A stretch of DNA of 64,000 nucleotides from Celerinatantimonas sp. MCCC 1A17872 (GTDB lineage: Bacteria; Pseudomonadota; Gammaproteobacteria; Enterobacterales; Celerinatantimonadaceae), in contig NZ_JBEQCS010000008.1 in NCBI RefSeq assembly GCF_046054195.1, positions 14,090-78,089 on the forward strand, written 5' to 3'. Under the pieces are notes generated by a model. It was not told where the DNA came from. It did not search any database and worked only from the letters and a program-made list of their open reading frames with translations. A program made the position numbers and the translations under genes. Below are positions 39,997 to 56,228 of this stretch, one piece after another. Every line of letters begins with the position of its first letter. The first letter of the stretch is position 1.

Positions 39997-40101
39997 GATT
40001 GTCTTGCGCTTTCAAGCTGGTAAAAAAAGTGCAGCGTAAAGGCAAAAACAATAAATCCAAACCTCATAGTCTAATAGTATCGATTGTTTTGGGGAGCAGT
40101 T

Positions 40102-40794: not shown

Positions 40795-41623
40795 AGCCCA
40801 TACGCGAAGGCTTAAAGAGTTGGCAGCGCTGATGCGCCATCATGCGTGTCATCGTCGCCACGGGCCTTATAAAGTTGGAGTCGATTTAGGAACGGCGAAT
40901 ATTGCGCTAGTCGTGGTTGATTACGCCAATCAACCGGTGACAGGCATTAGTTATCCATCAACGGTTGTGAAAGATGGTGTTGTGGTGGATTACCTAAAAG
41001 CGAGCGAAGTCGTATCTATGCTCAAAGCTCAGTTAGAAGAGCGCCTTGGTGAGCCTTTGAAATATGCTGCCACAGCGATTCCTCCGGGAATTTCCTCAGG
41101 TGACACGAAAGTAATTGTTAACGTAGTTGAAGCGGCTGGATTTACGGTTACCAATGTGATGGATGAGCCAGTTGCAGCAGCAGTTGCCTTAAACATCACC
41201 GATGGTGCCGTCGTAGATGTTGGTGGTGGCACAACTGGGATGAGTGTGTTTTGCAATAACCAAGTTATCTTTAGCGCCGATGAGCCAACTGGCGGCACAC
41301 ATATGACATTGGTCGTTGCTGGCGCTTTGAATCTTCAATACGAGCAAGCAGAAGCGTTAAAAATTGCAAAAGAGAATGAAGCGCAAGTCTTTGAGCTGAT
41401 TCGGCCAGTTGTTGAAAAAATGGCGACGTTAGTTTGTGGATGGCTGGGGCAGTATCCAGTTAAAAAATTATGGCTGGTGGGCGGGGCAAGTAGTTTCTCG
41501 CAGTTTGCCGATGTATTTAGTGGTGTGACGAATGTTCCCAGTGTTGTGGCCCCTGAGCCGCTATTAGTAACGCCATTGGGAATTGCTATCAAGGCAAAAG
41601 AGGTGGCATCTGTTCATTTATGA
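40787..41623 (+). CDS. eutJ: EutJ-like actin-fold ATPase/chaperone
   Basis: KVGVDLGTANIALVVVD… and …DVGGGTTGMSV motifs. 8-bp overlap with pduL. Confidence 0.8.
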   Translation: MAKAHTRRLKELAALMRHHACHRRHGPYKVGVDLGTANIALVVVDYANQPVTGISYPSTVVKDGVVVDYLKASEVVSMLKAQLEERLGEPLKYAATAIPPGISSGDTKVIVNVVEAAGFTVTNVMDEPVAAAVALNITDGAVVDVGGGTTGMSVFCNNQVIFSADEPTGGTHMTLVVAGALNLQYEQAEALKIAKENEAQVFELIRPVVEKMATLVCGWLGQYPVKKLWLVGGASSFSQFADVFSGVTNVPSVVAPEPLLVTPLGIAIKAKEVASVHL

Positions 41624-42309
41624 AAAATCCATCGTTTGAGCACAAACTTGATGCAATGATTTTTGCAATCCTTGAGCAAAAACGCTTAAAAGCCAAGTTG
41701 CTGCGAGTGGTTATCACCGGTTCTGATATGCGCTCATTAGAGCGGATCTTTGCCTGTATCGATGCGTTATATCATCGTGGTTACGCCATTGCGATATCGT
41801 TTTCATATTCAGCTTTTAACTCGATGCTCGCCCAAGTTTGTCAGCGTTGGATAGAGGTGAAAAAGCTTAATATCACAACAGATAACTGTGGCCCTCATTT
41901 ACCAAAAGATGACTATTACGGCGTTTTTTTCCCGGCATTGTCGATGAATAGCTTGGCTAAAATAGCTCAGTGTCTGAATGATAATATTGCCTGTGAATGG
42001 GCATTTGATGCGCTTGCATGCCGGCGCCCTGTCTATGTCACACTCAGCGTCGATGAGGACGAAAGTCATTTTTCCAGCACAATGCGCCAATGCCTGAGCG
42101 ATTACGTCAAAGCTCTTAAAGGCCTTGGGGTACACGTGCTCACCCAAGCTTGCCCAGCGGCTCATAACCGCCGACAGCTAATCACTGTTGCCGACGTTCG
42201 TAAGATGCAAAAGCTGACATCTTTGTCTGTCGAGGCTGATGCGCTAATTACCCCAGCGGCACGGGATGAAATCAATCGTTTACAACTTGTTCTGAATAGA
42301 AAAAGTTAG
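41620..42309 (+). CDS. Hypothetical microcompartment-associated protein, possibly PduM-like
   Basis: Occupies the PduM position (after PduL, before the vertex protein). C-terminal …LITPAARDEINRLQLVL resembles PduM …VVTAMARDAANARNIQLI. Confidence 0.4.
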   Translation: MKNPSFEHKLDAMIFAILEQKRLKAKLLRVVITGSDMRSLERIFACIDALYHRGYAIAISFSYSAFNSMLAQVCQRWIEVKKLNITTDNCGPHLPKDDYYGVFFPALSMNSLAKIAQCLNDNIACEWAFDALACRRPVYVTLSVDEDESHFSSTMRQCLSDYVKALKGLGVHVLTQACPAAHNRRQLITVADVRKMQKLTSLSVEADALITPAARDEINRLQLVLNRKS

Positions 42310-42318
42310 GAGGAACAT

Positions 42319-42591
42319 ATGTATCTGGCCAAAGTGACTGGTGCAATTGTATCAACCACCAAGCATGAATCTTTAATTGGAACCAAGTTATTGGTTGTGA
42401 GCCGCATGGATGCGAATCATCAGATAACTGGCTATCCAGAAATTGCTGTTGATTGCGTTGGTGCGGGCAATGGTGAAGTGGTGATCGTTGCTGTGGGTAG
42501 TTCGGCTCGTAAAAGTCGCGAGCAGGTAAACTCAGTGATTGATGCTGCTGTGGTGGGAATTGTTGACTCTCTCGAAGTGAATGATGATTAG
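42319..42591 (+). CDS. eutN: BMC vertex protein (EutN/PduN/CcmL, BMC-P)
   Basis: 90 aa. MYLAKVTGAIVSTTKHESLIGTKLLVV… is typical of BMC-P. Confidence 0.85.
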   Translation: MYLAKVTGAIVSTTKHESLIGTKLLVVSRMDANHQITGYPEIAVDCVGAGNGEVVIVAVGSSARKSREQVNSVIDAAVVGIVDSLEVNDD

Positions 42592-42624
42592 GCGATAAAA
42601 ACTCGATGATTTAAGGCCACTATT

Positions 42625-43143
42625 ATGAGCGTCAATCAAACCCGCGAAAGTCGAAGTCTTGATCATCTCATTGATCAGGCAATTGACCAATACGCTTATG
42701 AGCCAGTGACAACGCTAAGCTTAAACGATGCGATGACACTGGGGCGATTGGCCCACGAACAAGCGCATCAAATAGGTGTTGCAATCGTCTTTAGCATGCT
42801 CGATTCAATGGGCTATCAACGTTACTTTTTCAGCATGGATAATGCACTGCTAGTCAGCCACCAATTGGCGTATCGCAAGGCTTGGAGCGCGGTTGCTTTA
42901 AAAATGCCAACGCATGAGCTAGCAAGCCTTTGTCAACCCGGGCAAAGCTTGTATGGGCTGTTGAATCACCCAGATATCTGTTGTGTTGGGGGCGGGCTAC
43001 CTTGTTGGCATAAAGGACAACTGTTAGGTGCAATTGGCATTAGTGGCGGAAGTGTCGAGCAGGATATGTCGGTTGCCAGCAATACTTTGTTTAAATTTAG
43101 CCAGTCTCGTTATTTACTGACGTCGTCACCATTGGCGGTGTAA
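42625..43143 (+). CDS. DUF336 (GlcG / PduO C-terminal-like) haem-binding family protein
   Basis: …GGGLP…GQLLGAIGISGGSVEQD signature. Confidence 0.7.
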   Translation: MSVNQTRESRSLDHLIDQAIDQYAYEPVTTLSLNDAMTLGRLAHEQAHQIGVAIVFSMLDSMGYQRYFFSMDNALLVSHQLAYRKAWSAVALKMPTHELASLCQPGQSLYGLLNHPDICCVGGGLPCWHKGQLLGAIGISGGSVEQDMSVASNTLFKFSQSRYLLTSSPLAV

Positions 43144-43164
43144 GCCAAATCAGCCGAGGTTGTT

Positions 43165-44373
43165 ATGCCATCATCTGAGCGCGGCATTTTAGTCATTAAT
43201 TGTGGTTCATCATCGCTGAAATTTTCAGTGTTGCCGCAGGATAAGGATACTCCACTTTTTTATGGTATCGCGCAAAAGCTGGGGTTATCCGATGCCGAGA
43301 TCACCTTTCATGATGAGCAAGGACAAACTTGTTGTTACCCACTTAAACGCAGCTCTCACCAATGTGCGTTAGAAACATTGTTTGCCTATATGCGCCAGCA
43401 TTCAATGCTAGGGTCGTTATGTGCGATTGGTCATCGCGTGGCGCATGGCGGGAACCTCTTTAGCCATTCGGTATTGATTAATGATGAAGTGATTGCTCAA
43501 ATCCGAGGGCTTTGTGCGCTTGCTCCGCTGCATAATCCAGCGAATTTAATTGGTATTCGCAGCGCCTTGGAATTATTACCTGATATTCCCCAAGTCGCTG
43601 TATTTGATACCGCTTTTCATCAAACTATCCCCGCCAAAGCATATACTTATGCAATCCCTTTGGAATATCGCGAATTGTATCAGGTGCGCCGATATGGCTT
43701 TCATGGCAGCTCGCATCGCTACATTACCGCAGAAACTATTCATCGGTTGGGGTTAAATCCGGCGCAATGTGGGATTGTGATTGCTCATTTAGGCAATGGC
43801 TCATCGGTTTGTGCGGTAAAAAATGCGCAAAGCGTGGATACCTCGATGGGAATGACGCCGCTCGAAGGCCTAGTCATGGGAACTCGTTGTGGCGACCTAG
43901 ATTGCGGAGTCCTCGCATATTTAGCACGGTGCACTAAACAGTCGATTGAGTCGTTATATGAGTTAATGAACAATCAGTCCGGTTTACTTGGCTTATCTGG
44001 TATATCGAGTGATTTTCGCGCTTTACAAAGCGAAAGACTATCGGGAAACCCCCAAGCAACACTTGCCATCGATGTCATGATCCATCGTCTGGCGCGTCAT
44101 ATTGGGGGGCATATGGCTTCGTTAGAGCATTTGGATGCATTAGTGTTTACCGGTGGAATCGGTGAAAATTCGCCGCTGGTTCGAGAGTTGACCGTTAAAA
44201 GTCTGGCGGTTTTTGGTTTTCGTTTGGATGAGCGGCAAAATAACGCAATGTGCTGCGGTGAAAGCGGCATTATTTCGCAACCTAACACCCCTGTGGTAAT
44301 GGTTATTCCAACCAATGAAGAAAAAATGATAGCCAAAGATGCAGCCGATATTGCACAGGGTATTGCATTGTAA
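43165..44373 (+). CDS. Acetate/propionate kinase (AckA/PduW family)
   Basis: ILVINCGSSSLKF and the phosphate-binding motif FHGSSHRY. Confidence 0.85.
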   Translation: MPSSERGILVINCGSSSLKFSVLPQDKDTPLFYGIAQKLGLSDAEITFHDEQGQTCCYPLKRSSHQCALETLFAYMRQHSMLGSLCAIGHRVAHGGNLFSHSVLINDEVIAQIRGLCALAPLHNPANLIGIRSALELLPDIPQVAVFDTAFHQTIPAKAYTYAIPLEYRELYQVRRYGFHGSSHRYITAETIHRLGLNPAQCGIVIAHLGNGSSVCAVKNAQSVDTSMGMTPLEGLVMGTRCGDLDCGVLAYLARCTKQSIESLYELMNNQSGLLGLSGISSDFRALQSERLSGNPQATLAIDVMIHRLARHIGGHMASLEHLDALVFTGGIGENSPLVRELTVKSLAVFGFRLDERQNNAMCCGESGIISQPNTPVVMVIPTNEEKMIAKDAADIAQGIAL

Positions 44374-44729
44374 TTATTAGCTCTACCAAGGCATTTATGT
44401 GGGTTATCTTATCCATTTCATCGCTATTTATATCTGCTGTTTTTAGTTTTTATCCCCCTCGTTGGCAGCGTCTGCGTTCGCTTGTTTTCTCTTTTGAATA
44501 AACCTGCAATTTATTGCATCTATCTAAGCGATGACCGCAAAAGAATCCCCCTAGGGGGCAAAACATTTTTCGGTAATCTTCATATGATGAAGATGCTAGG
44601 GAGGGTTGATCTTTGGTAGTTGCAAAACTAATCACAAAAGGTCCACTCCTCTAGTTAAAACGCATCAAGGTGAGCCGGGAGCGCTTAAGCCTTTTTGCTT
44701 TAATTATCATCGAAATTGCCGAGGTAGAT

Positions 44730-45011
44730 ATGCAACAAGAAGCATTAGGTATGGTTGAAACAAAAGGGTTGGTTTCTGCCATTGAAGCCGCCGATACCAT
44801 GGTTAAGTCTGCCAATGTGACACTGGTTGGTTACGAAAAAATTGGTTCAGGATTAGTCACTGTTATGGTCCGCGGTGATGTCGGAGCGGTAAAAGCTGCC
44901 ACCGATGCAGGATCCTCTGCTGCGGCGAAAGTTGGCGAATTGGTTTCTGTCCACGTCATTCCTCGTCCACATGTCGAAGTCGAAAAAATTCTACCCAAAA
45001 CGCTTGAGTAA
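44730..45011 (+). CDS. BMC-H shell protein (PduA/EutM-like)
   Basis: [35 protein letters not shown] 6 nt upstream of the ATG. Confidence 0.85.
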
Positions 45012-45026
45012 TCCATTTAGAGGGGC

Positions 45027-45818
45027 GTGACAATGAAAGAGAATCTTGTTGAGCAGATTATTTCTGAGGTAATGAATAATCAAAGTCATGTCGGTGAGCC
45101 AAGCCAAACTACGAAAAGCGGCCCATGTGGGTTAACTGAGTTTGTGGGTAGTTCTGAACTTGGTCATACCATCGGTTTAGTGATAGCAAGCGTCGATAGC
45201 CAGCTGCACGAAGTGATGAATATCGATACTAAATATCGCTCCATCGGTATTTTGGGCGCTCGCACAGGTGCCGGCCCACACATTTTTGCAGCCGATGAAG
45301 CGGTTAAAGCCACGAACAGTGAAATTGTCGCCATTGAGCTGTGCCGAGACACTGAAGGTGGTGGCGGCCATGGCTCTTTAATTATCTTTGGCGCTGAAGA
45401 CGTATCAGATGTGCGCCGCGCGGTGGAAGTTGCTCTGTCCGAGCTCAAACGCACTATGGGCGATGTTTATGGCTCACCCGCTGGCCATTTGGAATTTCAA
45501 TACACAGCTCGGGCCAGCTATGCGCTTAATAAAGCGTTTGGTGCGCCAATTGGCCGCTCATTCGGTATGACTTGTGCCGCTCCTGCCGCTATTGGGGTTG
45601 TGATCGCAGATACTGCTGCCAAAGCTGCGGTAATTGAGCCTGTTGCCTATTCGAGCCCGCAAAAGGGAACTTGTTTTAGCAACGAAGCCATATTTACTTT
45701 TGCGGGGGATTCTGGCGCCGTTCGCCAGGCCATTGTAGCGGCTCGAGAAGTTGGGTTGCAGTTACTCTCAACGATGGACTCAGCGCCAATTAAATCAACG
45801 ACAACTCCATATATTTAA
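45027..45818 (+). CDS. pduB: Tandem-BMC-domain shell protein (PduB-like, BMC-T)
   Basis: 263 aa with two permuted BMC domains and a GGGG loop, PduB-like. Confidence 0.75.
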   Translation: MTMKENLVEQIISEVMNNQSHVGEPSQTTKSGPCGLTEFVGSSELGHTIGLVIASVDSQLHEVMNIDTKYRSIGILGARTGAGPHIFAADEAVKATNSEIVAIELCRDTEGGGGHGSLIIFGAEDVSDVRRAVEVALSELKRTMGDVYGSPAGHLEFQYTARASYALNKAFGAPIGRSFGMTCAAPAAIGVVIADTAAKAAVIEPVAYSSPQKGTCFSNEAIFTFAGDSGAVRQAIVAAREVGLQLLSTMDSAPIKSTTTPYI

Positions 45819-45855
45819 GTTCATTGGTGCGCGTTTAAGTGGCGTGTAGTAAGGA

Positions 45856-47376
45856 ATGGCTAGTATGAATGATACTGAAATTACTCAGGCGGTCGCGCAT
45901 GTTTTGAGTAAATATACCCAAACAAACCCGCCTGAAGAGCATACCTGTCAGAGCGAAAATTCAAGCTTTGAGTTGGATAGAATCGTTGCTAAGGCTTTGG
46001 CCGAGAAGTTTTCAACCGCTGCCGTTGAGCCGCTATCTGCTCCAACGATTGACTCTCATGCAGGTGTCTTTGCAGCGATGGATGAAGCAATTGGTGCAGC
46101 TTTACAGGCTCAGATCCAATATCGGCATTGTTCAATGCGTGATAGAGAAAGCTTTATCAGTGGGATCCGCAGCATTTTTATTCAGGAGTCAATTCTTGAA
46201 AAAATTTCGCGGATGACAGTCGATGAAACAGGCATGGGCAATTACGATGATAAATTGATTAAAAATCGAATTGCTGCCACTAAAACCCCTGGTACCGAAG
46301 ATCTCACAACGTTTGCGTTATCTGGTGATGATGGCCTTTCATTGATGGAATATTCGGCTTATGGGGTGATTGGCTCGATTACCCCAACCACCAATCCAAC
46401 CGAAACCATTATCAACAATACTATTGGCATGTTGGCTGCTGGAAATACCGTGGTATTTAGCCCACATCCGCGCTCAACCAAAGTATCGCTCTATACCATC
46501 GATTTAATTAACCGCAAACTTGCTGAGCTTGGCGCACCTAACAACTTAGTTGTCACAGTTGCCAAGCCATCGATTGAGAATACCAATGCGTTAATGAATG
46601 ACCCGCGGGTCAACATGCTGGTTGCAACGGGTGGGCCTTCGATAGTGCGCGCCATTATGTCGACCGGGAAAAAGGCAATTGGTGCTGGAGCCGGGAACCC
46701 GCCTGTGGTCGTGGATGAAACGGCCAATGTGGAAAAAGCCGCTCAAGACATCATCAACGGCTGTGCCTTTGATAATAATCTGCCGTGCATCGCCGAAAAA
46801 GAGCTGATTGTCGTTAATGAAGTGGCTGACTATTTGATTCATTGCATGAAAAAATGCGGCGGTTATTTATTGTGCGATCCCAAATTAGCTCATCAGCTGC
46901 AGAATCTGGTCATCAATGCCAAAGGCACTGGCCCTAAAACTGAGTTTGTCGGTAAGAACGCCCGTTATCTTTTGGAACAGTTGGGAATTGACGCGCCAGC
47001 TGACATAAAAGTGATTCTCATTGAAACAGAACGAGACGACCCATTTGTTGTGAATGAGTTGATGATGCCGATTTTGCCAATTGTGCGCGTGGGCAACGTC
47101 GATGAAGCGATTGATTTGGCAGTAAAAGTTGAGCATGGCAACCGTCATACCGCGATGATGCATTCGATGAATGTAGAAAAATTAACCAAAATGGCCCGTT
47201 TAATCCAGACCACTATTTTTGTCAAAAATGGGCCATCGTATGCCGGAATTGGTGTGGGTGGCGAAGGCCATACCACCTTTACGATTGCAGGCCCTACCGG
47301 TGAAGGGCTGACTTCGGCCCGCTCGTTTGCCCGGCATCGGCGCTGCGTGATGGTCGAAGCGTTGAATGTTCGCTAG
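45856..47376 (+). CDS. CoA-acylating aldehyde dehydrogenase (EutE/PduP-like)
   Basis: 506 aa. ALDH fold with a catalytic Cys region (…NNLPCIAEKE…) and an N-terminal ~40-aa extension that may act as an encapsulation peptide. Confidence 0.85.
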   Translation: MASMNDTEITQAVAHVLSKYTQTNPPEEHTCQSENSSFELDRIVAKALAEKFSTAAVEPLSAPTIDSHAGVFAAMDEAIGAALQAQIQYRHCSMRDRESFISGIRSIFIQESILEKISRMTVDETGMGNYDDKLIKNRIAATKTPGTEDLTTFALSGDDGLSLMEYSAYGVIGSITPTTNPTETIINNTIGMLAAGNTVVFSPHPRSTKVSLYTIDLINRKLAELGAPNNLVVTVAKPSIENTNALMNDPRVNMLVATGGPSIVRAIMSTGKKAIGAGAGNPPVVVDETANVEKAAQDIINGCAFDNNLPCIAEKELIVVNEVADYLIHCMKKCGGYLLCDPKLAHQLQNLVINAKGTGPKTEFVGKNARYLLEQLGIDAPADIKVILIETERDDPFVVNELMMPILPIVRVGNVDEAIDLAVKVEHGNRHTAMMHSMNVEKLTKMARLIQTTIFVKNGPSYAGIGVGGEGHTTFTIAGPTGEGLTSARSFARHRRCVMVEALNVR

Positions 47377-47399
47377 TTCGTTTTAAGGTGGAGCTGAGC

Positions 47400-47699
47400 A
47401 TGAAAGTTCGAATTATCAATGCGCCAGGGGCCGATGTTTTAGCCATGCTAAAACGGCGAATTTCACCCGAGCTAAGACAAAGCATCGATTTGGTCTGCAC
47501 CGATGCAATTGGGTTAGTGCTATTGCCGATTCCTGATCTGTATTTTTATGCAGATAAAGTCAGCAAAAGGGCCAATGTCACAGTCACTGAGATCTGTGGA
47601 ACTTGTCCTCAGCATGTCACCACCCTTGGCATTTTTGGCGAGCTTTCCGCAGTAAGAGACGCGGTTCAAGTGATAGAGGAGGACTCAGAGAGTTTCTGA
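47400..47699 (+). CDS. Permuted BMC-domain shell protein (EutS/PduU-like)
   Basis: ~100 aa. The pattern …IDLVCTDAIGLVLL…ANVTVTEI…GIFGELSAV fits a permuted BMC fold. Confidence 0.55.
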   Translation: MKVRIINAPGADVLAMLKRRISPELRQSIDLVCTDAIGLVLLPIPDLYFYADKVSKRANVTVTEICGTCPQHVTTLGIFGELSAVRDAVQVIEEDSESF

Positions 47700-47707
47700 G
47701 TGAACCG

Positions 47708-48316
47708 ATGAATAAGCTCCTCATCTTAGCCGGTGATTTTTCAGAAGATTATGAAGTAATGGTGCCTTTTCAGGCGCTAAAAATGCTCGGATTTGATGTT
47801 GATGTGGTATGCCCGGGAAAGTTAAGTGGTGAATGTATAAAAACAGCGATTCACGATTTTGAAGGGGATCAGACTTACAGCGAAAAACCTGGCCATTTGT
47901 TTGTATTAAATGCCTCGTTTCGCGATCTCAACCTTGCTGAATATAGCGGTTTATATATCACCGGTGGGCGTTCATCAGAGTATTTAAGACTGGATGCAAG
48001 GGTGTTGCATGTTGTGGATTATGCCATTCACTTTGCGCTTCCCATGGCAGCGATTTGCCATGGAGTCCAGATCTTGGTTGCAGCTAATGTGCTTAAAGGA
48101 AGAAAAGTAACAGGGTATCCGAGTGTGAAACCTGAAGTCGAACTTGCGGGTGGGCAATGGGTTAGCGCTTGTGATGATGGGGCAGTAACCGATGGCAATT
48201 TGGTGACGGCTCCCACTTGGAAAGCGCATCCGGAACTGTTACGTGCGTTTATTCATTTGCTTGGGATTCGCTTCATGCAGAAGGCATCAGGCTCTGTCGC
48301 AAGGCTAAATAATTAA
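47708..48316 (+). CDS. DJ-1/PfpI-family protein (class I glutamine amidotransferase-like)
   Basis: Nucleophile elbow AAICHGVQIL and the overall DJ-1 fold pattern. 9 nt after the EutS-like gene. Confidence 0.7.
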   Translation: MNKLLILAGDFSEDYEVMVPFQALKMLGFDVDVVCPGKLSGECIKTAIHDFEGDQTYSEKPGHLFVLNASFRDLNLAEYSGLYITGGRSSEYLRLDARVLHVVDYAIHFALPMAAICHGVQILVAANVLKGRKVTGYPSVKPEVELAGGQWVSACDDGAVTDGNLVTAPTWKAHPELLRAFIHLLGIRFMQKASGSVARLNN

Positions 48317-48362: not shown

Positions 48363-50912
48363 ATGTTAGAGAAAGGTTTTTCTAATCCGACCGATCGTGT
48401 TGTAAGACTCAAAACCATGATTCTGCAAGCTAAACCTTATGTAGAATCCGAACGAGCCGTGCTAGCAACCGAGGCCCATAAAGAGAATCAACATTTGCCT
48501 GCTGTTATGCGCCGGGCAAAAATGGTTGAAAAAATATTCAATGAATTGCCGGTGACTATTCGCCCTGATGAGCTGATTGTTGGGTCGGTAACCAAGCATC
48601 CGCGTTCGACTGAAATCTGCCCTGAGTTTTCATTCGATTGGGTAGAAAAAGAGTTCGAGACGATGGCTTCGCGAATGGCTGACCCATTTATTATTGAAAA
48701 ACAAACCGCTCAGCAATTACATGATGCATTTTTGTATTGGCCGGGTAAAACCACCAGTGAGCTGGCTTCGTCATATATGTCCCAGTCAACGCATGACAGT
48801 ATGGATAATGGCGTCTTTACGGTGGGTAACTACTATTTTGGCGGTGTTGGGCATGTTTGTGTCGATTATGGCAAAATTCTGAAAATTGGTTTTCAAGGAA
48901 TTATCGACGAAGTCACAAGTGCGCTGGAAAATTTAGACAGAACTAAACCTGATTACATTAAAAAAGAACAGTTCTACCATGCAGTATTGATTAGCTATCA
49001 AGCTGCGATTAATTATGCGCATCGTTATGCCGACGAAGCGGCGCGACTTGCTCAGCAAGAGCATAATCCGCAGCGAAAACAAGAACTCCAGCAGATCTCC
49101 AAAAACTGTCGCAGAGTCCCTGAATTTGGCGCAACTACCTTCTGGGAAGCCTGCCAAACATTCTGGTTTTTGCAAAGTATGTTGCAAATCGAATCCAGTG
49201 GCCATTCCATTTCACCGGGACGTTTTGACCAGTACATGTATCCATATTTAGCGGGCGATCATGCAATATCTGATGAGTTTGCCCAAGAGCTGGTGGATTG
49301 CTGCTGGATAAAACTCAACGATATCAATAAAACGCGTGATGAGGTCTCAGCTCAAGCATTTGCCGGTTACGCAGTGTTTCAAAATTTATGTGTTGGTGGC
49401 CAAAATGAACAAGGTTTAGATGCAACCAACCGTTTGAGTTATATGTGTATGGAAGCCTGCGCTCACGTTAGTTTGCCGCAGCCGTCATTTTCTATTCGAG
49501 TTTGGCAAGGCACGCCAGATGAATTTTTGTTCCGAGCTTCAGAAGTGGTTCGCTTAGGGCTCGGTGTGCCAGCGATGTATAACGATGAGGTGATTATTCC
49601 AGCGCTGCAAAACCGTGGTGTGTCACTTAAAGATGCTCGAAATTATTGCATTATTGGCTGCGTTGAACCGCAATGCCCGAATAAAACAGAAGGTTGGCAC
49701 GATGCAGCATTCTTTAATGTGGCAAAAGTGCTCGAAATTACCCTGCACAATGGCCGGGTTGGCAATAAACAGCTAGGGCCAGTGACGGGTGAAATGACCC
49801 AATGGCATAGTATCGAAGACTTTTATAGCGCATTTGAAAAACAGATGGCGCATTTTGTCCATAACTTGGTTGAAGCGTGTAATAGCGTCGATATGGCACA
49901 TGCCGAACGCTGTCCTCTGCCATTTTTATCCGCCATGGTTGATGATTGCATTGGTCGAGGAAAATCTTTGCAAGAGGGCGGTGCTATCTATAACTTCACG
50001 GGCCCGCAAGCTTTCGGGATTGCCGACAGTGGCGACTCTGTTTACGCAATGCAAAAACACGTGTTCGATGAAGGAAAAATCTCGCTTGAAGAGCTAAAAG
50101 GCGCATTGGATGCAAACTTTGGCCATGGGGTCGGTGAGAAAGTTGCAAGTAATACATCAAACTCTTATGCCGAACAAGATGTCTATGCCGTGGTTAAACG
50201 AATTATCGATCAAAATAGTTCGTTATCTCCGGCGGCAATTAAAGACGAGGTCTATCGTCAGTTAAATACAGTTTCTAACTCTGCGGTTGTGAGCACTGGC
50301 AATCTGTCTCGCTATGAAGAGCTACGCCATCTTTTGGAAAATACCCCGTGTTTTGGCAACGATATTGATGATGTTGACTACGTTGCTCGTCGGTGTGCTC
50401 TGGTTTATTGCAAAGAAGTTGAAAAATATACAAATCCTCGTGGCGGCCAGTTCCAGGCCGGTATTTATCCGGTGTCGGCTAATGTGCTCTTTGGTAAAGA
50501 TGTTGCCGCTTTACCTGATGGACGATTGGCAAAAGAGCCGCTCGCCGATGGGGTTTCACCTCGTCAGGGTAAAGATACCCAAGGGCCAACCGCTGCTGCT
50601 AACTCAGTGGCGAAACTTGATCACTTTATCGCATCAAATGGCACGCTATATAACCAGAAGTTTTTGCCATCAGCCTTAAAAGGTGAAAATGGTATTCGTA
50701 ACTTTAGTGGTTTGGTTCGCAGTTACTTTGATAAAAAAGGGATGCATGTGCAATTTAATGTGGTCGACAGAGACACCCTTATTGAGGCACAAAAACATCC
50801 TCAGGAGCATCAGGATTTAGTGGTTCGAGTGGCGGGGTATAGTGCGCAATTTATTGTACTGGCTAAAGAAGTTCAGGACGATATTATCAGCCGAACTGAG
50901 CAGCATTTTTAA
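48363..50912 (+). CDS. Glycyl radical enzyme of the PFL-like family. The dehydratase/lyase subclass could be 1,2-propanediol dehydratase or choline TMA-lyase; undetermined.
   Basis: 849 aa. Glycyl-radical motif VRVAGYSAQF near the C-terminus and catalytic Cys-x-Glu (IIGCVEP). Confidence 0.9.
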   Translation: MLEKGFSNPTDRVVRLKTMILQAKPYVESERAVLATEAHKENQHLPAVMRRAKMVEKIFNELPVTIRPDELIVGSVTKHPRSTEICPEFSFDWVEKEFETMASRMADPFIIEKQTAQQLHDAFLYWPGKTTSELASSYMSQSTHDSMDNGVFTVGNYYFGGVGHVCVDYGKILKIGFQGIIDEVTSALENLDRTKPDYIKKEQFYHAVLISYQAAINYAHRYADEAARLAQQEHNPQRKQELQQISKNCRRVPEFGATTFWEACQTFWFLQSMLQIESSGHSISPGRFDQYMYPYLAGDHAISDEFAQELVDCCWIKLNDINKTRDEVSAQAFAGYAVFQNLCVGGQNEQGLDATNRLSYMCMEACAHVSLPQPSFSIRVWQGTPDEFLFRASEVVRLGLGVPAMYNDEVIIPALQNRGVSLKDARNYCIIGCVEPQCPNKTEGWHDAAFFNVAKVLEITLHNGRVGNKQLGPVTGEMTQWHSIEDFYSAFEKQMAHFVHNLVEACNSVDMAHAERCPLPFLSAMVDDCIGRGKSLQEGGAIYNFTGPQAFGIADSGDSVYAMQKHVFDEGKISLEELKGALDANFGHGVGEKVASNTSNSYAEQDVYAVVKRIIDQNSSLSPAAIKDEVYRQLNTVSNSAVVSTGNLSRYEELRHLLENTPCFGNDIDDVDYVARRCALVYCKEVEKYTNPRGGQFQAGIYPVSANVLFGKDVAALPDGRLAKEPLADGVSPRQGKDTQGPTAAANSVAKLDHFIASNGTLYNQKFLPSALKGENGIRNFSGLVRSYFDKKGMHVQFNVVDRDTLIEAQKHPQEHQDLVVRVAGYSAQFIVLAKEVQDDIISRTEQHF

Positions 50913-50975: not shown

Positions 50976-51896
50976 ATGAATAACGACGTTGATTATAATG
51001 CGCAGGGTGTTCTTTTTAATATTCAGCGATATTCGCTCCATGATGGTCCGGGGATCCGCACGATTCCTTTTTTTAAAGGTTGTCCACTTTCATGTAAATG
51101 GTGCAGCAATCCAGAGTCTCAGAATCCACATCCAGAAATCGTTTATAACCAGATAAGTTGTGTGCATTGTGGTAAATGTCTCGCAGCTTGTCCTGAGCAT
51201 GCAATTGCTCTGAGTAATCCATTTTTCATTGACCGGGATAAATGTATTAACTGTGGTCATTGTGCGGATGTTTGCCCAACTGGGGCGCTTGAGATCAAAG
51301 GTAAAACGATGTCGGTTGAGCAGGTGTTGCTTGAGCTTAAAAAAGAGGAAAATCTGTTTCGACGATCTGGTGGTGGTGTGACACTCTCCGGGGGTGAACC
51401 GCTCCAGCAACCGGTATTTGCTCGAGAACTACTCAAAGGGTGTAAAGAAAAAGGCTGGCATACGGCGATGGAAACCACTGGATGTGCGCCCAAAGAGGTG
51501 ATTGAAGATGTGTTTCCATGGGTTGATTTGGCATTAACTGATATTAAAGCGCTGAATCCCAAGATTCATAGAGAAAATACCGGTGTGGACAACACGCTGA
51601 TTTTAGAGAATTTGATGCGTATTTCGTTTATCACGAAAGTAGTGGTGCGGATCCCGGTGATTCCTGGTGTAAACGATAATCCAGATGAAATTCGCGCAAT
51701 TGGGGAATTTGCCAGATTACTCTCCAATGTGGATACCATTCATCTATTGCCTTATCACACCTATGGCCAAAATAAATATTCTCTGCTGGGGCGAATTTAT
51801 CCCATGGGAGATACACCTGTTATGGCCGATGAACAAGTTGAGCCTTTACGTGACGTGATAGAATCACTTGGCTTTCAGTGTCACATTGGTGGCTAG
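50976..51896 (+). CDS. Glycyl-radical-enzyme activating enzyme (radical SAM)
   Basis: CPLSCKWC radical-SAM cluster motif plus two ferredoxin-like Cx2Cx2Cx3C motifs. Confidence 0.9.
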   Translation: MNNDVDYNAQGVLFNIQRYSLHDGPGIRTIPFFKGCPLSCKWCSNPESQNPHPEIVYNQISCVHCGKCLAACPEHAIALSNPFFIDRDKCINCGHCADVCPTGALEIKGKTMSVEQVLLELKKEENLFRRSGGGVTLSGGEPLQQPVFARELLKGCKEKGWHTAMETTGCAPKEVIEDVFPWVDLALTDIKALNPKIHRENTGVDNTLILENLMRISFITKVVVRIPVIPGVNDNPDEIRAIGEFARLLSNVDTIHLLPYHTYGQNKYSLLGRIYPMGDTPVMADEQVEPLRDVIESLGFQCHIGG

Positions 51897-51921
51897 CTTT
51901 TGTAACCCTTAGCTGTTTGAT

Positions 51922-51956
51922 AAGCCATACATTGATTTGTGTGGCTTTATTTTTAT
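51922..51956. terminator. Hairpin terminator between the convergent activase and BMC-H genes
   Basis: AAGCCATACA-ttgattt-TGTGTGGCTT followed by TATTTTTAT. Confidence 0.5.
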
Positions 51957-51980
51957 CTGCTTAGTCGCAATGGTTCATTG

Positions 51981-52547
51981 TTATTGGCCACTTTTGTCGG
52001 AGTCTGCTTTGGGAGCTGCTTTTTTAGTCGTTTTTCGTGGGGCTCGTCGGGTTCTCGTTGTCGCAGTTTTACTGGTAGGTTTGGTGGCTGGTTTAACAGG
52101 CGTTGATTCTGGCCGTTGTATTAAAGCTGTCGTTTGGTGAGGGGCATTAAGCGTGCTCTGCGTTGGTTTTTTATCTGATGTCGCAACTTGTTTTAAGCTT
52201 TTTGATGCTTCAGTGTCATTGGGCGCAGGTGTTTTTTGGGTAGTCGGTGCAGGTGGCGCTTTAACCGTTTCGGCAGTATTTATCAGAGCATCTAGTCCGT
52301 TGGCCGTGCGTGCAATCACGCGATGCGCCCAGACTTTTCCCATTCGGTTGGCGGCAGCTACGCCAGAGGCAACCGCGGCGTTAATTGCGCCGACATCACC
52401 TTCGAGTTTTACTGTGACCAAGCCATTGCCTTTGGTTAGCTCATAGCCGATTAGTGTGACATTGGCTGATTTTACAGCAGCATCAGCAGCCTCTATCGCG
52501 GCGGTTAAGCCAACGGTTTCGATTAAACCTAAACTATGGTTAGACAT
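51981..52547 (-). CDS. BMC-H shell protein with a ~100-aa Lys/Thr/Pro-rich disordered C-terminal tail
   Basis: The N-terminal 90 aa form a canonical BMC domain (LGLIETVGLTAAIEAADAAVKSANV). The tail is low-complexity (…KPTQSTLNAPHQTT…TRRAPRKTTKKAAPK…). AGGAGA RBS. Confidence 0.8.
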   Translation of the reverse strand: MSNHSLGLIETVGLTAAIEAADAAVKSANVTLIGYELTKGNGLVTVKLEGDVGAINAAVASGVAAANRMGKVWAHRVIARTANGLDALINTAETVKAPPAPTTQKTPAPNDTEASKSLKQVATSDKKPTQSTLNAPHQTTALIQRPESTPVKPATKPTSKTATTRTRRAPRKTTKKAAPKADSDKSGQ

Positions 52548-52576
52548 ACTGTTCTCCTAATCGAATTTTCATGATG

Positions 52577-53743
52577 TTATGCCGCGCAGTTTGCTCGATG
52601 AGCGTCTTCTCGTAATTGCTCCGCTTTATCTATTTTTTCCCAGGGGAAGATATTGCGACCAAAATGGCCGTAGCAAGCTGTTTTTCGATAACGCGGAGTG
52701 AGTAAATCCAAGTGTTGGATAATTTGATAAACACTTAGCTCAAAATGTTCTTGGATTAAGCCGAGTATTTTTTCTTTGGCAATGGTTTCGCTACCAAATG
52801 TTTGAATATCTATAGAAATTGGGGCAGGGACCCCAATGGCCCAAGCCAGCTGAATTTCACATTGTGATGCAAGCCCTGCGGCGACAATATTTTTAGCGAT
52901 ATAGCGGGCGACATACGCGCCAGAGCGGTCCACTTTGGATGGGTCTTTACCTGAAAAAGCGCCACCTCCGTGGTGAGCAGCACCACCATAGGTATCAACA
53001 ATAATTTTTCTGCCTGTTAGTCCACAATCGGCGGCGGGGCCCCCGATGACAAATGGTCCGGCTGGATTAACGAGCAGTTGTGTATCATGTTTTAGCCATG
53101 CGTTTGGCAATACTGGTTTAATAATCTCTTCAATCACCGCTTCTTGTAACTGTTTTTGGCTGATATCGATGTGGTGCTGAGTGGATAGCACGACTGTTTG
53201 AGCTTGTATTACGTGGCGCTGGTTAAATCGCAAACTCACCTGAGACTTAGCATCAGGCAATAGAAAATCTAGCGTATGACTTTTACGAACGAAGGCATGT
53301 CGCTGCATTAATCGATGAGCAAACAGCAGTGCCGCAGGCATATATTCGGGCGTTTCATCGCAGGCATATCCATAGGTGATGCCTTGATCGCCAGCCCCTT
53401 GTTCTTGATTATCTTTGGCTCGAATAGCATCGCTGATATTCAATGACTGTTGGCCAAGTAAGTTAATCAGCCGGCAATGTTTGGCATCGAATCCTTTGTC
53501 GGCACTGTCATAACCTATCTCTTCGATGGTGCGATGGACAACTTGCTCAATATCAAATGTGGCCGATGAGCTAATTTCACCGGCTAAAACGATAGCATCA
53601 GATTTTAGAAGGCATTCACAGGCAACTTTTGCGCTTGGATCGCGAAGCAAAAAGCCATCTAGAATGGCATCACTGATTTGATCTGCCATTTTATCTGGAT
53701 GTCCTTCACCGACTGATTCTGATGTGAACAGATGACTATCCAT
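52577..53743 (-). CDS. metK: S-adenosylmethionine synthetase, divergent paralog
   Basis: MetK motifs LFTSESVGEGHPDK, GAGDQG and …GGGAFSGKDPSKVDRS. Only ~50% identical to E. coli MetK by eye. Confidence 0.85.
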   Translation of the reverse strand: MDSHLFTSESVGEGHPDKMADQISDAILDGFLLRDPSAKVACECLLKSDAIVLAGEISSSATFDIEQVVHRTIEEIGYDSADKGFDAKHCRLINLLGQQSLNISDAIRAKDNQEQGAGDQGITYGYACDETPEYMPAALLFAHRLMQRHAFVRKSHTLDFLLPDAKSQVSLRFNQRHVIQAQTVVLSTQHHIDISQKQLQEAVIEEIIKPVLPNAWLKHDTQLLVNPAGPFVIGGPAADCGLTGRKIIVDTYGGAAHHGGGAFSGKDPSKVDRSGAYVARYIAKNIVAAGLASQCEIQLAWAIGVPAPISIDIQTFGSETIAKEKILGLIQEHFELSVYQIIQHLDLLTPRYRKTACYGHFGRNIFPWEKIDKAEQLREDAHRANCAA

Positions 53744-53895
53744 TGCCCGCCAGTGTGATGATTCATTTCTTGTTAAGAATAAAAGAGCGATGGGCTAAGC
53801 GACATACACTATCTTGCGTGAATAGGGGAATTTTTTGCGCTGTTGATAAACTTTGAGCAGATTCATCATCTGTGGGGGATTGATTTTTTACAAGC

Positions 53896-54948
53896 TCAAA
53901 GTGTATCCACTTGCATACGCCGATACTCGGATGGCGCTTCGCCTGTTTCTTTTTTAAAGATACGACAAAAATAATTCGAGTCTTGCCATGATAACTCCAG
54001 CGCAATGGCGTTGATTTTTAATTCACTAAAGATAAGCAGTGAGCGAGCAATTGCTATTTTTCGCCCTGTGACATAATTAGAAAAACCGACACCGGTATGT
54101 TTCTTAAAGGCTCGACTGAGATAACAGGAGCTAACATACGATTTTTCGGCAATGCTATCTAATGTGACGTTAGTGAGAATATCATGCTCAATGTGAAATT
54201 TCGCGCGGCGTAAAAAATCCATATTATTACTCATGTTTTTAAAGGCGTGAGTAAATAATTTTTGAGATATTTTCATGAGTTGAAAAATTAACTGAGAATA
54301 GATGAGCTTATTTAAACTACTTTGGTGTACCTTTTGAGAAAGCATATTTAAGCTGTCTAATTCAACCTGATAGTTATCATCGGCTGATTCTAAATAAAGG
54401 TGAATAGTATCTAATAGCGTTAAAATAGCGCATTTAGCGGTTTGCAGCTCTTGATGAGAATCTAAGAATGCCTGATTGATATGGTTAAATATGAAGTCAT
54501 GCCAGAGCGGATAATCGCAGCTTTCAAGCATTTTGTTTAAGTCTTTTTTCAGCGTGCGAGTTGCGGCTATATCGTTATCATTGCAGCCGAGATTTTTTTT
54601 GATTGTTTCGACTAATGTTGTTTTTTTGACCGGTTTAAGCAGATAGTCCTCTACTTTAAGATTGATCATGGCGCGCAGCAGATCGAAGTCGTCATTCGCG
54701 GTGGTCACGATAACTTTGGTATCTCGGTTTTTAGCTTTGAGGTATTCAATCACCTCTTTACCATTGGGTAACGGGATATTGATATCAACAAACATCATGT
54801 CGATCTGTGTTAGTTTATCAATCAGATCAATTGCTTTTCGGCCTGTTGATGCTTCATGAAGAACCGCATTATCCACACATTCTGAAATGATCCGATGCAA
54901 AGATTCAAGTTCAATAGGCTCATCTTCAACAACAATAATATTGTACAT
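53896..54948 (-). CDS. Response regulator with CheY receiver and AraC-type HTH (YesN-like)
   Basis: Receiver (…MMFVDINIPLPNGKEV…) and a C-terminal AraC HTH (…SYVSSCYLSRAFKKHTGV…). Confidence 0.8.
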   Translation of the reverse strand: MYNIIVVEDEPIELESLHRIISECVDNAVLHEASTGRKAIDLIDKLTQIDMMFVDINIPLPNGKEVIEYLKAKNRDTKVIVTTANDDFDLLRAMINLKVEDYLLKPVKKTTLVETIKKNLGCNDNDIAATRTLKKDLNKMLESCDYPLWHDFIFNHINQAFLDSHQELQTAKCAILTLLDTIHLYLESADDNYQVELDSLNMLSQKVHQSSLNKLIYSQLIFQLMKISQKLFTHAFKNMSNNMDFLRRAKFHIEHDILTNVTLDSIAEKSYVSSCYLSRAFKKHTGVGFSNYVTGRKIAIARSLLIFSELKINAIALELSWQDSNYFCRIFKKETGEAPSEYRRMQVDTL

Positions 54949-54980
54949 AATGTATCTCGCTACATGTTGTTCATCTAAAT

Positions 54981-56228
54981 TTATTGTTTGTACTGGATTG
55001 GAAATGTCAGTGTAATAGTCGTGCCACCCATTGGTTTAAATGGGCTAGCAATTTCCAATTTTGATTGCTCTCCAAATAAAAGTTGTAAACGGTTAATGAT
55101 ATTATTAATGCCAATCCCTCCTTTTTGGCGGTTTTGGTTCCCGGAAAGAATGTGTTCAATATCGTCAGGTGATATGCCATTGCCATTATCTGATAGGGTA
55201 ATAATGACATTTTCACCATCATCTTTAGCATAGATATCTAATTGGCTTTTTGTTTCTCTTGGTTCGACAACATAATTAAAGAAATTTTCTACTAAAGGCT
55301 GCATAATTAAAAATGGGCAGATAATTTCTAGATATTTTGGGGCAATGTCACAGGTGTAATCAAATCTATCTCCCATTCTTACTTTTTGGATAGACATATA
55401 ATTTTGCACATATTTTACTTCGTGGCCTAAAGTAATTAAGCCGCGGCTATTTTTACGCAATAAATAACGCATCATATCTGAAAATTCATGCACCATGGTT
55501 TCGGTGCGTTGGGCATCTTCAAGATAAGCCAAGCGGCCAATCGTATTGAGGACATTAAATAAAAAATGAGGATTCACCTGATACGACAATGCTTTAAATT
55601 CAGCCTCATGAAGGGAGCGTTCGATTTCCATGCGTTTACGCAGTTCATCGGTTAATTCAAGCTCTTTTTGGTGGAGTTCACGTTGAATTGTATTGGTGTA
55701 TGCTTGCTCAACCAGATAAGAAACTAGATTAAACAGTGCATAAGAGATAGCCGAAAAGCGCTCATAAGGCATGGTTTGAATCGTCGAATCTTGAGATACA
55801 TTGAGTTGCAACTCATCGCGCAGATGGTTTTGCTCAAGAATATACTCAATAGCCTGCTCGTTGTCTTTCTCAACGTGGACCTGGCCTGAGATAAATGCGC
55901 CCAGATAGTGGCCATTAATCATAATCGGTACGGCACATTCGATGAATCCGCAATCACAGCGATAGACAACCGGTTTTTGTGCTTTCATCGCGGCCCTTCC
56001 GCCAGCATCATCGTTGTCGTAACAAATTTTGGCAAGTTCAGGGTTATTGCGAAAGTGAATGCATCTAGCGCAAAAGCCACTGGGGTGGGTTACCGGTACG
56101 CCATTCTCATCAACAATCACAAGCGCAACCATCATGGACTTACTGAAGTTATCTTGTAAGGTTTGCAGGCGTGCGACATCGATATATTCAGTAAGTTTAT
56201 AATGAGAAGCCATGATGGATACCTTCAA
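54981..56228 (-). CDS. Cytoplasmic sensor histidine kinase with an N-terminal PocR-like domain (YesM/LytS-type)
   Basis: No TM segment. N-terminal Cys-rich PocR-like region. [13 protein letters not shown]-box and a HATPase_c domain. Confidence 0.75.

What the first reader, a model, noticed from the sequence alone, without database searches (positions are those of the whole stretch)
51981..53743. Divergent metK paralog co-oriented with a shell protein inside the GRM locus
The MetK encoded here keeps all catalytic motifs but is strongly diverged from enterobacterial or Vibrio housekeeping MetK. Its ATP/Met-binding loops are replaced by, for example, ECLLKSDAIVLAGEISSSATFD. It lies 30 bp upstream of a BMC-H shell gene on the same strand, directly opposite the radical-SAM activase.

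This suggests a locus-dedicated SAM synthetase supplying the activase. The enzyme could be compartment-associated or co-induced with the locus. A second metK is presumably present elsewhere in the genome.
Basis: partly seen in the sequence, partly recalled or inferred. Interest (0 to 1): 0.65.

Follow-up and report, generated by a model that had tools for sequence, protein, structure and literature searches.

The report
GrpR: microcompartment-linked second SAM synthetase
The gene is a real, intact SAM synthetase of the already named GrpR type, an accessory copy that travels with and appears co-regulated with glycyl-radical propanediol microcompartment loci, so this is an ordinary new member of a known kind.

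Summary
Window 52577-53743(-) encodes a 388-aa methionine adenosyltransferase. A 29-nt spacer with an AGGAG ribosome-binding site separates it from a BMC-H shell gene (51981-52547, -). The pair converges on the glycyl-radical enzyme and its activase.

It is not new. The locus is gene-for-gene orthologous to E. coli grpA-N plus grpP-S (GRM3/Grp propanediol microcompartment). RefSeq already names the orthologue [quoted passage not shown]. Axen et al. 2014 listed SAM synthetase as a GRM3 ancillary gene and proposed SAM supply.

- **Phylogeny:** the window protein falls in a GrpR clade apart from housekeeping MetKs (187/200 bootstraps).
- **Sequence:** it keeps 15/15 catalytic residues and 10/11 clade signature residues.
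- **Context:** the order PocR-kinase, AraC-regulator, MetK, shell gene recurs in 7/7 contexts examined.
- **Copy number:** all 539 E. coli genomes with grpR also carry housekeeping metK.
- **Regulation:** a conserved 33-bp box lies upstream of both metK and the shell/enzyme operon, which predicts co-regulation.

No encapsulation peptide is evident. A second metK in this genome (Celerinatantimonas sp.) could not be checked.

The parts
52577..53743 (-). grpR-type methionine adenosyltransferase (accessory MetK paralogue), 388 aa
   Evidence: It matches PF00438, PF02772 and PF02773 and scores 565 bits on TIGR01034. Identity is 66% to E. coli GrpR against 59% to E. coli MetK. It falls in the GrpR clade in 187/200 bootstraps. 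It keeps 15/15 catalytic residues and 10/11 clade signature residues.
52548..52576 (-). 29-nt metK to shell-gene spacer with an AGGAG ribosome-binding site and no predicted terminator
   Evidence: Sequence read; terminator scan.
51981..52547 (-). grpS-type BMC-H shell protein (BMC domain, residues 5-80) with a roughly 100-aa low-complexity, basic-ended C-terminal tail
   Evidence: It matches PF00936 and is 48% identical to E. coli GrpS. The tail is conserved in character but not in sequence.
53806..53838 (-). conserved 33-bp 'Grp box' (GCAAAAAATTCC-N9-GCAAGATAGTGT), 63 nt upstream of the metK ATG; predicted activator site and promoter
   Evidence: It is conserved in the regulator-to-metK intergenic alignment of 8 loci. 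The pattern gives 2 hits in the window against 0.01 expected. A looser pattern hits 10/10 GrpR loci and 0/79 housekeeping metK loci.
53896..54948 (-). grpQ-type response regulator with an AraC-type HTH
   Evidence: It matches PF00072, PF12833 and PF00165 and is 54% identical to E. coli GrpQ.
54981..56228 (-). grpP-type sensor histidine kinase with a PocR sensory domain
   Evidence: It matches PF10114, PF06580 and PF02518 and is 69% identical to E. coli GrpP.
51922..51947 (.). hairpin between the convergent activase and shell genes; terminator-like on the + strand
   Evidence: 10-bp stem followed by a T-run on the + strand.
50976..51896 (+). grpN-type glycyl-radical-enzyme activase (radical SAM), the presumed consumer of SAM
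   Evidence: It scores 379 bits on TIGR02494 and is 69% identical to E. coli GrpN.
48363..50912 (+). grpM-type glycyl radical diol dehydratase
   Evidence: It matches PF02901 and PF01228. It is below the CutC equivalog cut-off. It is 82% identical to E. coli GrpM.
44537..44569 (+). second copy of the Grp box (GCAAAAGAATCC-N9-GCAAAACATTTT), upstream of the grpH-like shell gene
   Evidence: The same position is conserved in E. coli, V. salinus and a third locus.
38869..48316 (+). grpA to grpL orthologues: Fe-ADH, phosphotransacylase, EutJ-like, flavoprotein, BMC-P, DUF336/HbpS-like, acetate/propionate kinase, BMC-H, BMC-T, aldehyde dehydrogenase, BMC-H, DJ-1/PfpI
   Evidence: Pfam assignments. 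Collinear with E. coli grpA-L at 34-95% identity.

Best explanation
The gene is the Celerinatantimonas orthologue of GrpR, the accessory methionine adenosyltransferase of GRM3/Grp (glycyl-radical 1,2-propanediol) microcompartment loci.

**Shown here**
- It is a catalytically intact MetK.
- It belongs to a paralogue clade separate from housekeeping MetK.
- It sits in the conserved unit PocR-kinase, AraC-regulator, MetK, BMC-H shell gene, next to the glycyl radical enzyme and its radical-SAM activase.
- It has its own upstream 33-bp direct-repeat box, which is repeated in front of the shell/enzyme operon.

**Inferred mechanism**
- When 1,2-propanediol is sensed anaerobically by the PocR kinase, the AraC-type regulator probably activates both boxed promoters.
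- MetK and the tailed shell protein would then be made together with the compartment.
- The extra MetK would convert methionine plus ATP into SAM. This would sustain the activase, which cleaves one SAM to methionine and 5'-deoxyadenosine for each glycyl radical it installs.
- The housekeeping, methionine-repressed metK would then not limit activation or re-activation of the dehydratase.

Whether the enzyme acts in the cytosol or at or inside the shell is open. The cytosol is the default, because no targeting extension is visible.
For: - **Identity:**
- **Catalytic residues:** 15/15 are conserved in the window protein and nearly invariant across 59 clade members.
- **Similarity:** all 120 best database hits are closer to E. 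coli GrpR (66-100%) than to E. coli MetK (58-66%).
- **Phylogeny:** the NJ tree separates 59 GrpR-like sequences, including the window protein, from 64 housekeeping MetKs in 187/200 bootstraps. E. coli MetK groups with Wigglesworthia MetK, not with E. coli GrpR.
- **Context:** the same neighbours occur in E. coli, V. salinus, V. natriegens, Raoultella, Brenneria and two metagenomic contigs.
- **Locus orthology:** 18 of 19 E. coli grp genes have collinear orthologues in the window.
- **Copy number in E. coli:** grpPQRS is in 539/5426 complete genomes, and every one of these carries two metK-type genes.
- **Shared box:** it lies upstream of grpR and grpH in the window and in E. coli. It is present in 10/10 GrpR loci and 0/79 housekeeping metK loci.
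- **Literature:**
  - GRM3 ancillary SAM synthetase and the SAM-supply hypothesis (PMC4207490).
  - Co-induction in C. beijerinckii (PMC6384099).
  - GrpPQ- and 1,2-propanediol-dependent grpR expression in UPEC (PMC11724981).
Against: - No experiment in the papers I could read shows that GrpR supplies the activase or is needed for propanediol fermentation. Lundin et al. 2020, which deleted each grp gene, could not be read.
- SAM demand of an activase is stoichiometric with activation events and small compared with cellular methylation, so the need for a dedicated enzyme is not obvious.
- The source genome could not be searched for a housekeeping metK.
- The box was defined from the same sequences it was then counted in.
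- The published GrpQ footprint on fimS does not clearly match the box.
- The kinase and regulator genes have lower G+C (0.37-0.40) than metK (0.46), which is unexplained.
Confidence: 0.75

Rival explanations
1. Encapsulated or shell-tethered SAM regeneration. GrpR works at or inside the microcompartment, possibly held by the disordered basic tail of its invariably adjacent shell partner GrpS. There it re-makes SAM from the methionine released by an encapsulated activase, using ATP from the locus's propionate/acetate kinase.
For: - metK and the tailed BMC-H gene are adjacent and tightly spaced in most contexts.
- The tail is retained in character across taxa, with a low-complexity linker and a basic end.
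- Metabolosomes are known to recycle cofactors internally (general knowledge; coenzyme A recycling is cited).
Against: - GrpR has no conserved N- or C-terminal extension and no amphipathic encapsulation-peptide-like segment. Its tails are 0-25 aa long and unrelated in sequence.
- The shell tail is absent in Brenneria, where the protein is 101 aa.
- The shell gene is missing after metK in one context.
- Nothing I could read reports GrpR in purified compartments.
Confidence: 0.15
2. Housekeeping metK that happens to lie beside the locus, as the only metK of the genome.
For: It is a fully intact MetK. The rest of the genome could not be inspected.
Against: - It is placed in the GrpR clade, not with housekeeping MetKs.
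- It carries the GrpR signature residues.
- The four-gene synteny is conserved across families.
- The locus-specific upstream box is absent from 79 housekeeping metK loci.
- In E. coli the orthologue is always a second copy.
- The window branch is the longest in the clade, which suggests weaker constraint than on an essential single-copy gene.
Confidence: 0.04
3. Regulatory or moonlighting role. GrpR belongs to the regulatory unit with the kinase and regulator. It would modulate signalling (for example through the local SAM level or a protein contact) rather than feed the activase. Alternatively it is a functionless hitch-hiker.
For: The gene always follows the kinase and regulator genes rather than the enzyme genes. 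C. beijerinckii shows the same order.
Against: - Full conservation of catalytic residues across 59 clade members argues for selection on catalysis.
- The gene has its own conserved promoter-like box separate from the regulator genes.
- Retention across Vibrio, Enterobacterales and Celerinatantimonas argues against a hitch-hiker.
Confidence: 0.05

Closest known systems
E. coli GrpR (WP_001001003.1), 'propanediol utilization system methionine adenosyltransferase GrpR' of the grp locus (UPEC CFT073-type, GRM3)
   Same: - Same clade, at 66% identity.
- Same signature residues.
- Same neighbours: GrpP kinase, GrpQ regulator, GrpS tailed shell protein, and the GrpM/GrpN dehydratase and activase.
- Same upstream 33-bp box.
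   Different: - The window protein is the most divergent member seen. Its nearest relative outside its own near-identical (98-100%) sequences is 69% identical.
- The grpPQRS unit converges on grpN instead of following it, an arrangement also seen in Vibrio, Raoultella and Brenneria.
- There is no grpO permease orthologue.
- The host is a marine Celerinatantimonas.
GRM3-locus MetK of Clostridium beijerinckii DSM 6423 (CIBE_4889)
   Same: It is a SAM synthetase inside a GRM3 locus, directly after a histidine kinase and a response regulator. It is strongly co-induced with the compartment genes (PMC6384099).
   Different: It comes from a Firmicute. I did not have its sequence, so it is untested whether it belongs to the same paralogue clade or was recruited independently.
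Housekeeping MetK of E. coli (PDB 1FUG, 1RG9, 7LL3)
   Same: Same fold family and length. The alignment is gapless over residues 2-381, and all catalytic and binding residues are identical.
   Different: - Only 58.6% identical, and in a different clade.
- Eleven fixed substitutions, at E. coli positions counted with Met1: T44C, V107I, L122I, M123T, R162L, T228A, M255A, S300A, Y301W, T309V/I, P338V.
- A different upstream region: the Grp box replaces the housekeeping context.
Cofactor-supply genes of other metabolosomes, such as PduO, PduS and PduGH for B12 in Pdu compartments (named from general knowledge)
   Same: The logic is the same: a locus carries its own enzyme to make or regenerate the cofactor its signature enzyme needs.
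   Different: The cofactor and enzyme family differ. The Pdu proteins are known compartment components, and GrpR is not shown to be one.

Membership tests
Methionine adenosyltransferase (MetK; TIGR01034, PF00438/PF02772/PF02773) | Three-domain architecture and a full-length match above the curated equivalog cut-off | tested here: met
   All three Pfam domains are present with E-values of 1e-38 to 1e-65. TIGR01034 scores 564.9 bits against a 309.4 cut-off, covering profile positions 1-375 of 377.
Methionine adenosyltransferase (MetK) | Catalytic, metal-binding and substrate-binding residues. In E. coli literature numbering these are H14, D16, K17, E42, E55, Q98, D118, K165, F230, D238, R244, K245, K265, K269, D271. 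The residue list comes from established knowledge. | tested here: met
   15/15 are identical in the window protein.
Methionine adenosyltransferase (MetK) | Enzymatic formation of SAM from ATP and methionine | not testable with these tools
   This needs an enzyme assay.
GrpR (accessory MetK of GRM3/Grp loci) | Phylogenetic placement with GrpR proteins rather than housekeeping MetK | tested here: met
   Identity is 66% to E. coli GrpR against 59% to E. coli MetK. The split between GrpR-like and housekeeping sequences is recovered in 187/200 NJ bootstraps. The window protein has 10/11 clade signature residues.
GrpR (accessory MetK of GRM3/Grp loci) | Gene order PocR-kinase, AraC-type regulator, MetK, (BMC-H), adjacent to the glycyl radical enzyme and activase | tested here: met
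   Window. The same order occurs in 7/7 homologue contexts and in the annotated E. coli locus.
GrpR (accessory MetK of GRM3/Grp loci) | Coexists with a separate housekeeping metK in the same genome | not testable with these tools
It is also not in the gene-position index. In E. coli the feature is met in 539/539 grpR-positive genomes.
GrpR (accessory MetK of GRM3/Grp loci) | Expression under locus control (1,2-propanediol, GrpP/GrpQ) | tested here: inconclusive
   There is only sequence evidence. A 33-bp box is shared between the metK and grpH upstream regions and conserved across taxa. Expression has been measured only in homologous systems.
GRM3 / Grp glycyl-radical propanediol microcompartment locus | Glycyl radical enzyme plus cognate radical-SAM activase, next to BMC-H, BMC-T and BMC-P shell genes | tested here: met
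GRM3 / Grp glycyl-radical propanediol microcompartment locus | GRM3 ancillary set listed by Axen 2014: acetate kinase, peptidase, flavoprotein, EutJ homologue, SAM synthetase, two-component pair, DUF336 | tested here: met
   All seven are present. The list comes from PMC4207490.
GRM3 / Grp glycyl-radical propanediol microcompartment locus | Signature enzyme of the 1,2-propanediol dehydratase type rather than choline lyase | tested here: met
   It is 82% identical to E. coli GrpM over 850 aa. The CutC equivalog scores 561 bits against a 1050 cut-off. Substrate specificity itself was not assayed.
Housekeeping metK orthologue | Clusters with housekeeping MetK of related Gammaproteobacteria | tested here: not met
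Encapsulation-peptide-bearing compartment cargo | Conserved N- or C-terminal extension (a short amphipathic helix on a linker) relative to non-compartment homologues | tested here: not met
   The N-terminus is flush with E. coli MetK. The window C-terminus is only 4 residues longer. C-tails in the clade are 0-25 aa long and unrelated in sequence.

The most novel reading that the evidence does not exclude
GrpR and the tailed shell protein GrpS form a functional pair. The disordered, basic-ended tail of the shell hexamer would dock the SAM synthetase on the compartment. Methionine released by the encapsulated activase would then be turned back into SAM on the spot, using ATP from the locus's own acyl-phosphate kinase. 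That would be a SAM-recycling module built into a bacterial organelle.
Probability: 0.12. Interest if true: 0.6.

Novelty: new member of a known kind. Interest (0 to 1): 0.15.

Why it matters
The finding extends the GrpR-type accessory SAM synthetase and the Grp/GRM3 propanediol microcompartment to the marine genus Celerinatantimonas, with its most divergent member so far. The comparison also gives two usable by-products. One is a set of 11 residues that separates GrpR from housekeeping MetK. The other is a conserved 33-bp box in front of both grpR and the shell/enzyme operon, which is a testable candidate operator for the GrpP/GrpQ system. The biological question of why a glycyl-radical organelle carries its own SAM synthetase, and whether it works inside the shell, remains open. 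It was already posed in 2014.

Tried and rejected
- **Genome scan for a second metK:** a genome-contig scan with the window MetK was meant to find the source genome and a second metK. It returned no Celerinatantimonas record. I used those loci as the housekeeping outgroup instead.
- **Gene-position index:** looking up the window protein found no record, so the assembly could not be reached.
- **Plasmid search:** no match.
- **RNA families:** Rfam at gathering threshold on the whole window, and at E<=1 on 51800-54100, found no SAM riboswitch or other RNA near metK.
- **Promoter scan:** no sigma-70 consensus promoter was found in the regulator-to-metK gap. By eye I saw no tandem MetJ boxes there (not formally scanned).
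- **Papers not held:** Lundin et al. 2020 (J Bacteriol), Jorda et al. 2013 and Zarzycki et al. 2015 could not be read. Whether a grpR deletion has a phenotype therefore stays unknown to me.
- **GrpQ footprint:** I compared the published footprint on fimS with the box. The similarity is weak and the spacing differs, so I do not use it as support.
- **First NJ attempt:** the run with 201 taxa timed out. I repeated it on 123 non-redundant taxa.
- **Box half-sites:** single half-sites of the box occur at chance frequency. Only the composite 33-bp pattern is specific.
Full report
**What is at the coordinates.** The window carries an ATG ORF at 52577-53743 on the minus strand (388 aa). It is followed by an ORF at 51981-52547 (188 aa).
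- The first ORF has the three S-adenosylmethionine synthetase domains. It scores 564.9 bits on the metK equivalog TIGR01034, whose cut-off is 309.4.
- It aligns to E. coli MetK structures without a single gap over residues 2-381 at 58.6% identity.
- The second ORF is a BMC-H shell domain (residues 5-80) with a roughly 100-residue Pro/Thr/Lys-rich tail.
- The spacer is 29 nt, contains AGGAG, and has no predicted terminator.
- Both genes converge on the radical-SAM activase (50976-51896, +) and the glycyl radical enzyme (48363-50912, +). A hairpin lies between the converging genes at 51922-51947.

The string ECLLKSDAIVLAGEISSSATFD does not replace binding loops. It aligns position for position with E. 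coli [22 protein letters not shown] and keeps Glu42 and Glu55.

**The locus.** Upstream on the same strand lie a PocR-domain histidine kinase (54981-56228) and a response regulator with an AraC-type HTH (53896-54948). The genes at 38869-51896 on the plus strand encode the following:
- Fe-alcohol dehydrogenase, phosphotransacylase, an EutJ-like protein and a flavoprotein;
- a BMC-P vertex protein, a DUF336/HbpS-like protein and acetate/propionate kinase;
- BMC-H, BMC-T, aldehyde dehydrogenase and another BMC-H;
- a DJ-1/PfpI protein, the glycyl radical enzyme and the activase.

This is exactly the GRM3 gene set that Axen et al. 2014 described. [quoted passage not shown] **It has a name.** The closest database sequence is annotated as coming from Celerinatantimonas sp. 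MCCC 1A17872 (100%). All other top hits are 63-69% identical proteins from Vibrio, Raoultella, Klebsiella, Brenneria, Pectobacterium, Atlantibacter, Enterobacter and E. coli.
- In E. coli the four-gene unit occurs in 539 of 5426 complete genomes.
- RefSeq annotates it as grpP (sensor kinase), grpQ (response regulator), grpR ([quoted passage not shown]) and grpS (shell hexamer), as part of grpA-grpS.
- The window locus is collinear with that locus for 18 of 19 genes at 34-95% identity. The dehydratase is 82% identical, MetK/GrpR 66%, and grpO has no orthologue.

**Paralogue, not housekeeping.**
- All 120 best hits are closer to E. coli GrpR (66-100%) than to E. coli MetK (58-66%).
- I built a neighbour-joining tree of 59 non-redundant GrpR-like proteins and 64 housekeeping MetKs. 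The housekeeping set came from the genome scan plus E. coli MetK.
- The GrpR-like set, including the window protein, is separated from all housekeeping sequences in 187 of 200 bootstraps.
- The window protein groups with the Vibrio members on the longest branch. E. coli MetK groups with Wigglesworthia MetK.
- Fifteen catalytic, metal- and substrate-binding residues (list from established MetK enzymology) are all present and nearly invariant in the clade.
- Eleven positions are fixed differently in the two groups, and the window protein has the GrpR state at ten.
- A blastn search with grpR finds at least one metK-type gene in all 5426 E. coli genomes and exactly two in the grpR-positive ones (5966 places in 5427 records). 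In E. coli, GrpR is therefore always an extra copy.

**Conserved context and a shared control element.** In seven homologue contexts the order PocR-kinase, AraC-regulator, MetK recurs next to the glycyl radical enzyme and activase. These are E. coli, V. salinus, V. natriegens, Raoultella planticola, Brenneria corticis and two metagenomic contigs.
- The order is usually followed by the BMC-H gene. In V. natriegens the shell gene exists but was not called.
- The convergent layout of the window is the common one.
- The regulator-to-metK gap (100-190 nt) contains a conserved element.
- The composite pattern GCAARANAWTCC-N9-GCAARAYAKTKT hits the 64-kb window exactly twice, with up to three mismatches allowed and 0.01 hits expected. 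One hit is at 53806-53838(-), 63 nt before the metK ATG. The other is at 44537-44569(+), upstream of the grpH-like shell gene.
- In the E. coli locus the nearly identical composite pattern (position 9 is K rather than W) again hits exactly twice, in the same two places. The grpH-upstream copy is also conserved in V. salinus and another locus.
- A looser form occurs in 10/10 GrpR-type loci and in none of 79 housekeeping metK loci.
- The element is a direct repeat with 21-bp periodicity and lacks a -35 consensus. That fits a site for an AraC-type activator (inference).

The pattern was derived from these same sequences, so the counts overstate independence. The published GrpQ footprint on fimS does not clearly resemble it.

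**Expression evidence from relatives.** In C. beijerinckii DSM 6423 the GRM3-locus MetK (CIBE_4889) also follows a kinase and a regulator. It is induced by log2 9.12, 8.08 and 6.58 on L-rhamnose relative to glucose, like the rest of the locus (PMC6384099). In UPEC CFT073, grpR was used as the reporter of the grp cluster. It is down in the grpP/grpQ deletion with 1,2-propanediol under anaerobic but not aerobic conditions (PMC11724981).

**Mechanism.**
- Shown: an intact MetK of the GrpR clade, in conserved synteny, with a locus-specific upstream element shared with the shell/enzyme operon.
- Inferred: co-induction by the PocR kinase and AraC regulator, and supply or regeneration of SAM for the activase. 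The activase consumes one SAM per glycyl radical formed and releases methionine and 5'-deoxyadenosine (radical-SAM chemistry, summarised in PMC6325248).
- Open: location. GrpR has no conserved terminal extension. The window protein is only four residues longer than E. coli MetK, and C-tails in the clade are 0-25 residues long and unrelated in sequence. Nothing in the sequence therefore points to encapsulation.
- The partner shell protein keeps a low-complexity tail with a basic end in most taxa, but the tail is absent in Brenneria. Tethering by that tail is speculation.

**What could not be done.** The clade placement, the E. coli precedent and the long branch make a second copy very likely. 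The genetic study of all 19 grp genes (Lundin et al. 2020) is not in the library. From memory only, its abstract reports that 8 of 19 genes were required and that GrpP/GrpQ mediate induction by 1,2-propanediol. I do not recall the grpR result.

**Verdict.** It is already described and named, so it is a new and unusually divergent member of the GrpR family inside a standard GRM3/Grp locus. Interest is low. The residual interest lies in the predicted operator and in the unresolved question of where GrpR acts.

Noticed in passing
window 53806-53838 (-) and 44537-44569 (+); L085 18335-18367 and 5455-5487: A conserved 33-bp direct-repeat box (GCAARANAWTCC-N9-GCAARAYAKTKT) lies upstream of both grpR (metK) and grpH. 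It is found in every GrpR-type locus fetched and in none of 79 housekeeping metK loci. It is a candidate operator of the AraC-type regulator GrpQ, and I did not find it described in the papers I could read.
   Followed up: yes
window 51981-52270 (-), the C-terminal roughly 100 aa of the shell protein; L001 11197-11742, L003 11198-11713, L087 9237-9815, L088 9200-9802, L004 about 11185-11757: The GrpS-type BMC-H proteins carry a long low-complexity tail (Pro/Thr/Ala/Glu-rich linker with an Arg/Lys-rich end). The tail is conserved in character but not in sequence, and it is missing in Brenneria (101 aa). Its function is unknown.
   Followed up: partly
window 53896-56228 versus 38869-53743: The kinase and regulator genes have clearly lower G+C (0.40 and 0.37) than metK (0.46), the shell gene (0.50) and the rest of the locus (0.44-0.50). 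The flanks are 0.35-0.42. This may reflect different histories or constraints.
   Followed up: no
window 29271-35453, tRNA at 31186-31257 (+): An RNA-repair cluster lies here: an RtcR sigma-54 activator (minus strand) facing an SPFH/Band-7 protein, the RtcB ligase, an RlaP-family nucleotidyltransferase and an RNase T-like exonuclease. A tRNA-Cys(GCA) gene (ARAGORN; Rfam 49.9 bits) sits in the divergent promoter region. It could be an ordinary tRNA or an operon-associated tRNA-like RNA.
   Followed up: partly
window 35633-38699: No orthologue of the E. coli permease grpO was found. Immediately upstream of the grpA-like gene lie an LDH/MDH-family dehydrogenase (35633-36673), a 341-aa ORF with no Pfam match (36773-37798, -) and a calcineurin-like phosphoesterase (37953-38699).
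   Followed up: no
L001/L002/L085 (E. coli), between grpO and grpP: In E. coli, a fragmented group II intron reverse transcriptase/maturase is inserted between grpO and grpP. In V. salinus (L003), an integrase fragment and a ParE/Phd toxin-antitoxin pair are inserted between grpS and grpN. The junction around the grpPQRS unit seems to be a hotspot for insertions.
   Followed up: no
L086 9248-10495: In one metagenomic context the gene after metK is a second PocR-domain histidine kinase instead of the shell gene. The box upstream of that metK is degenerate.
   Followed up: no
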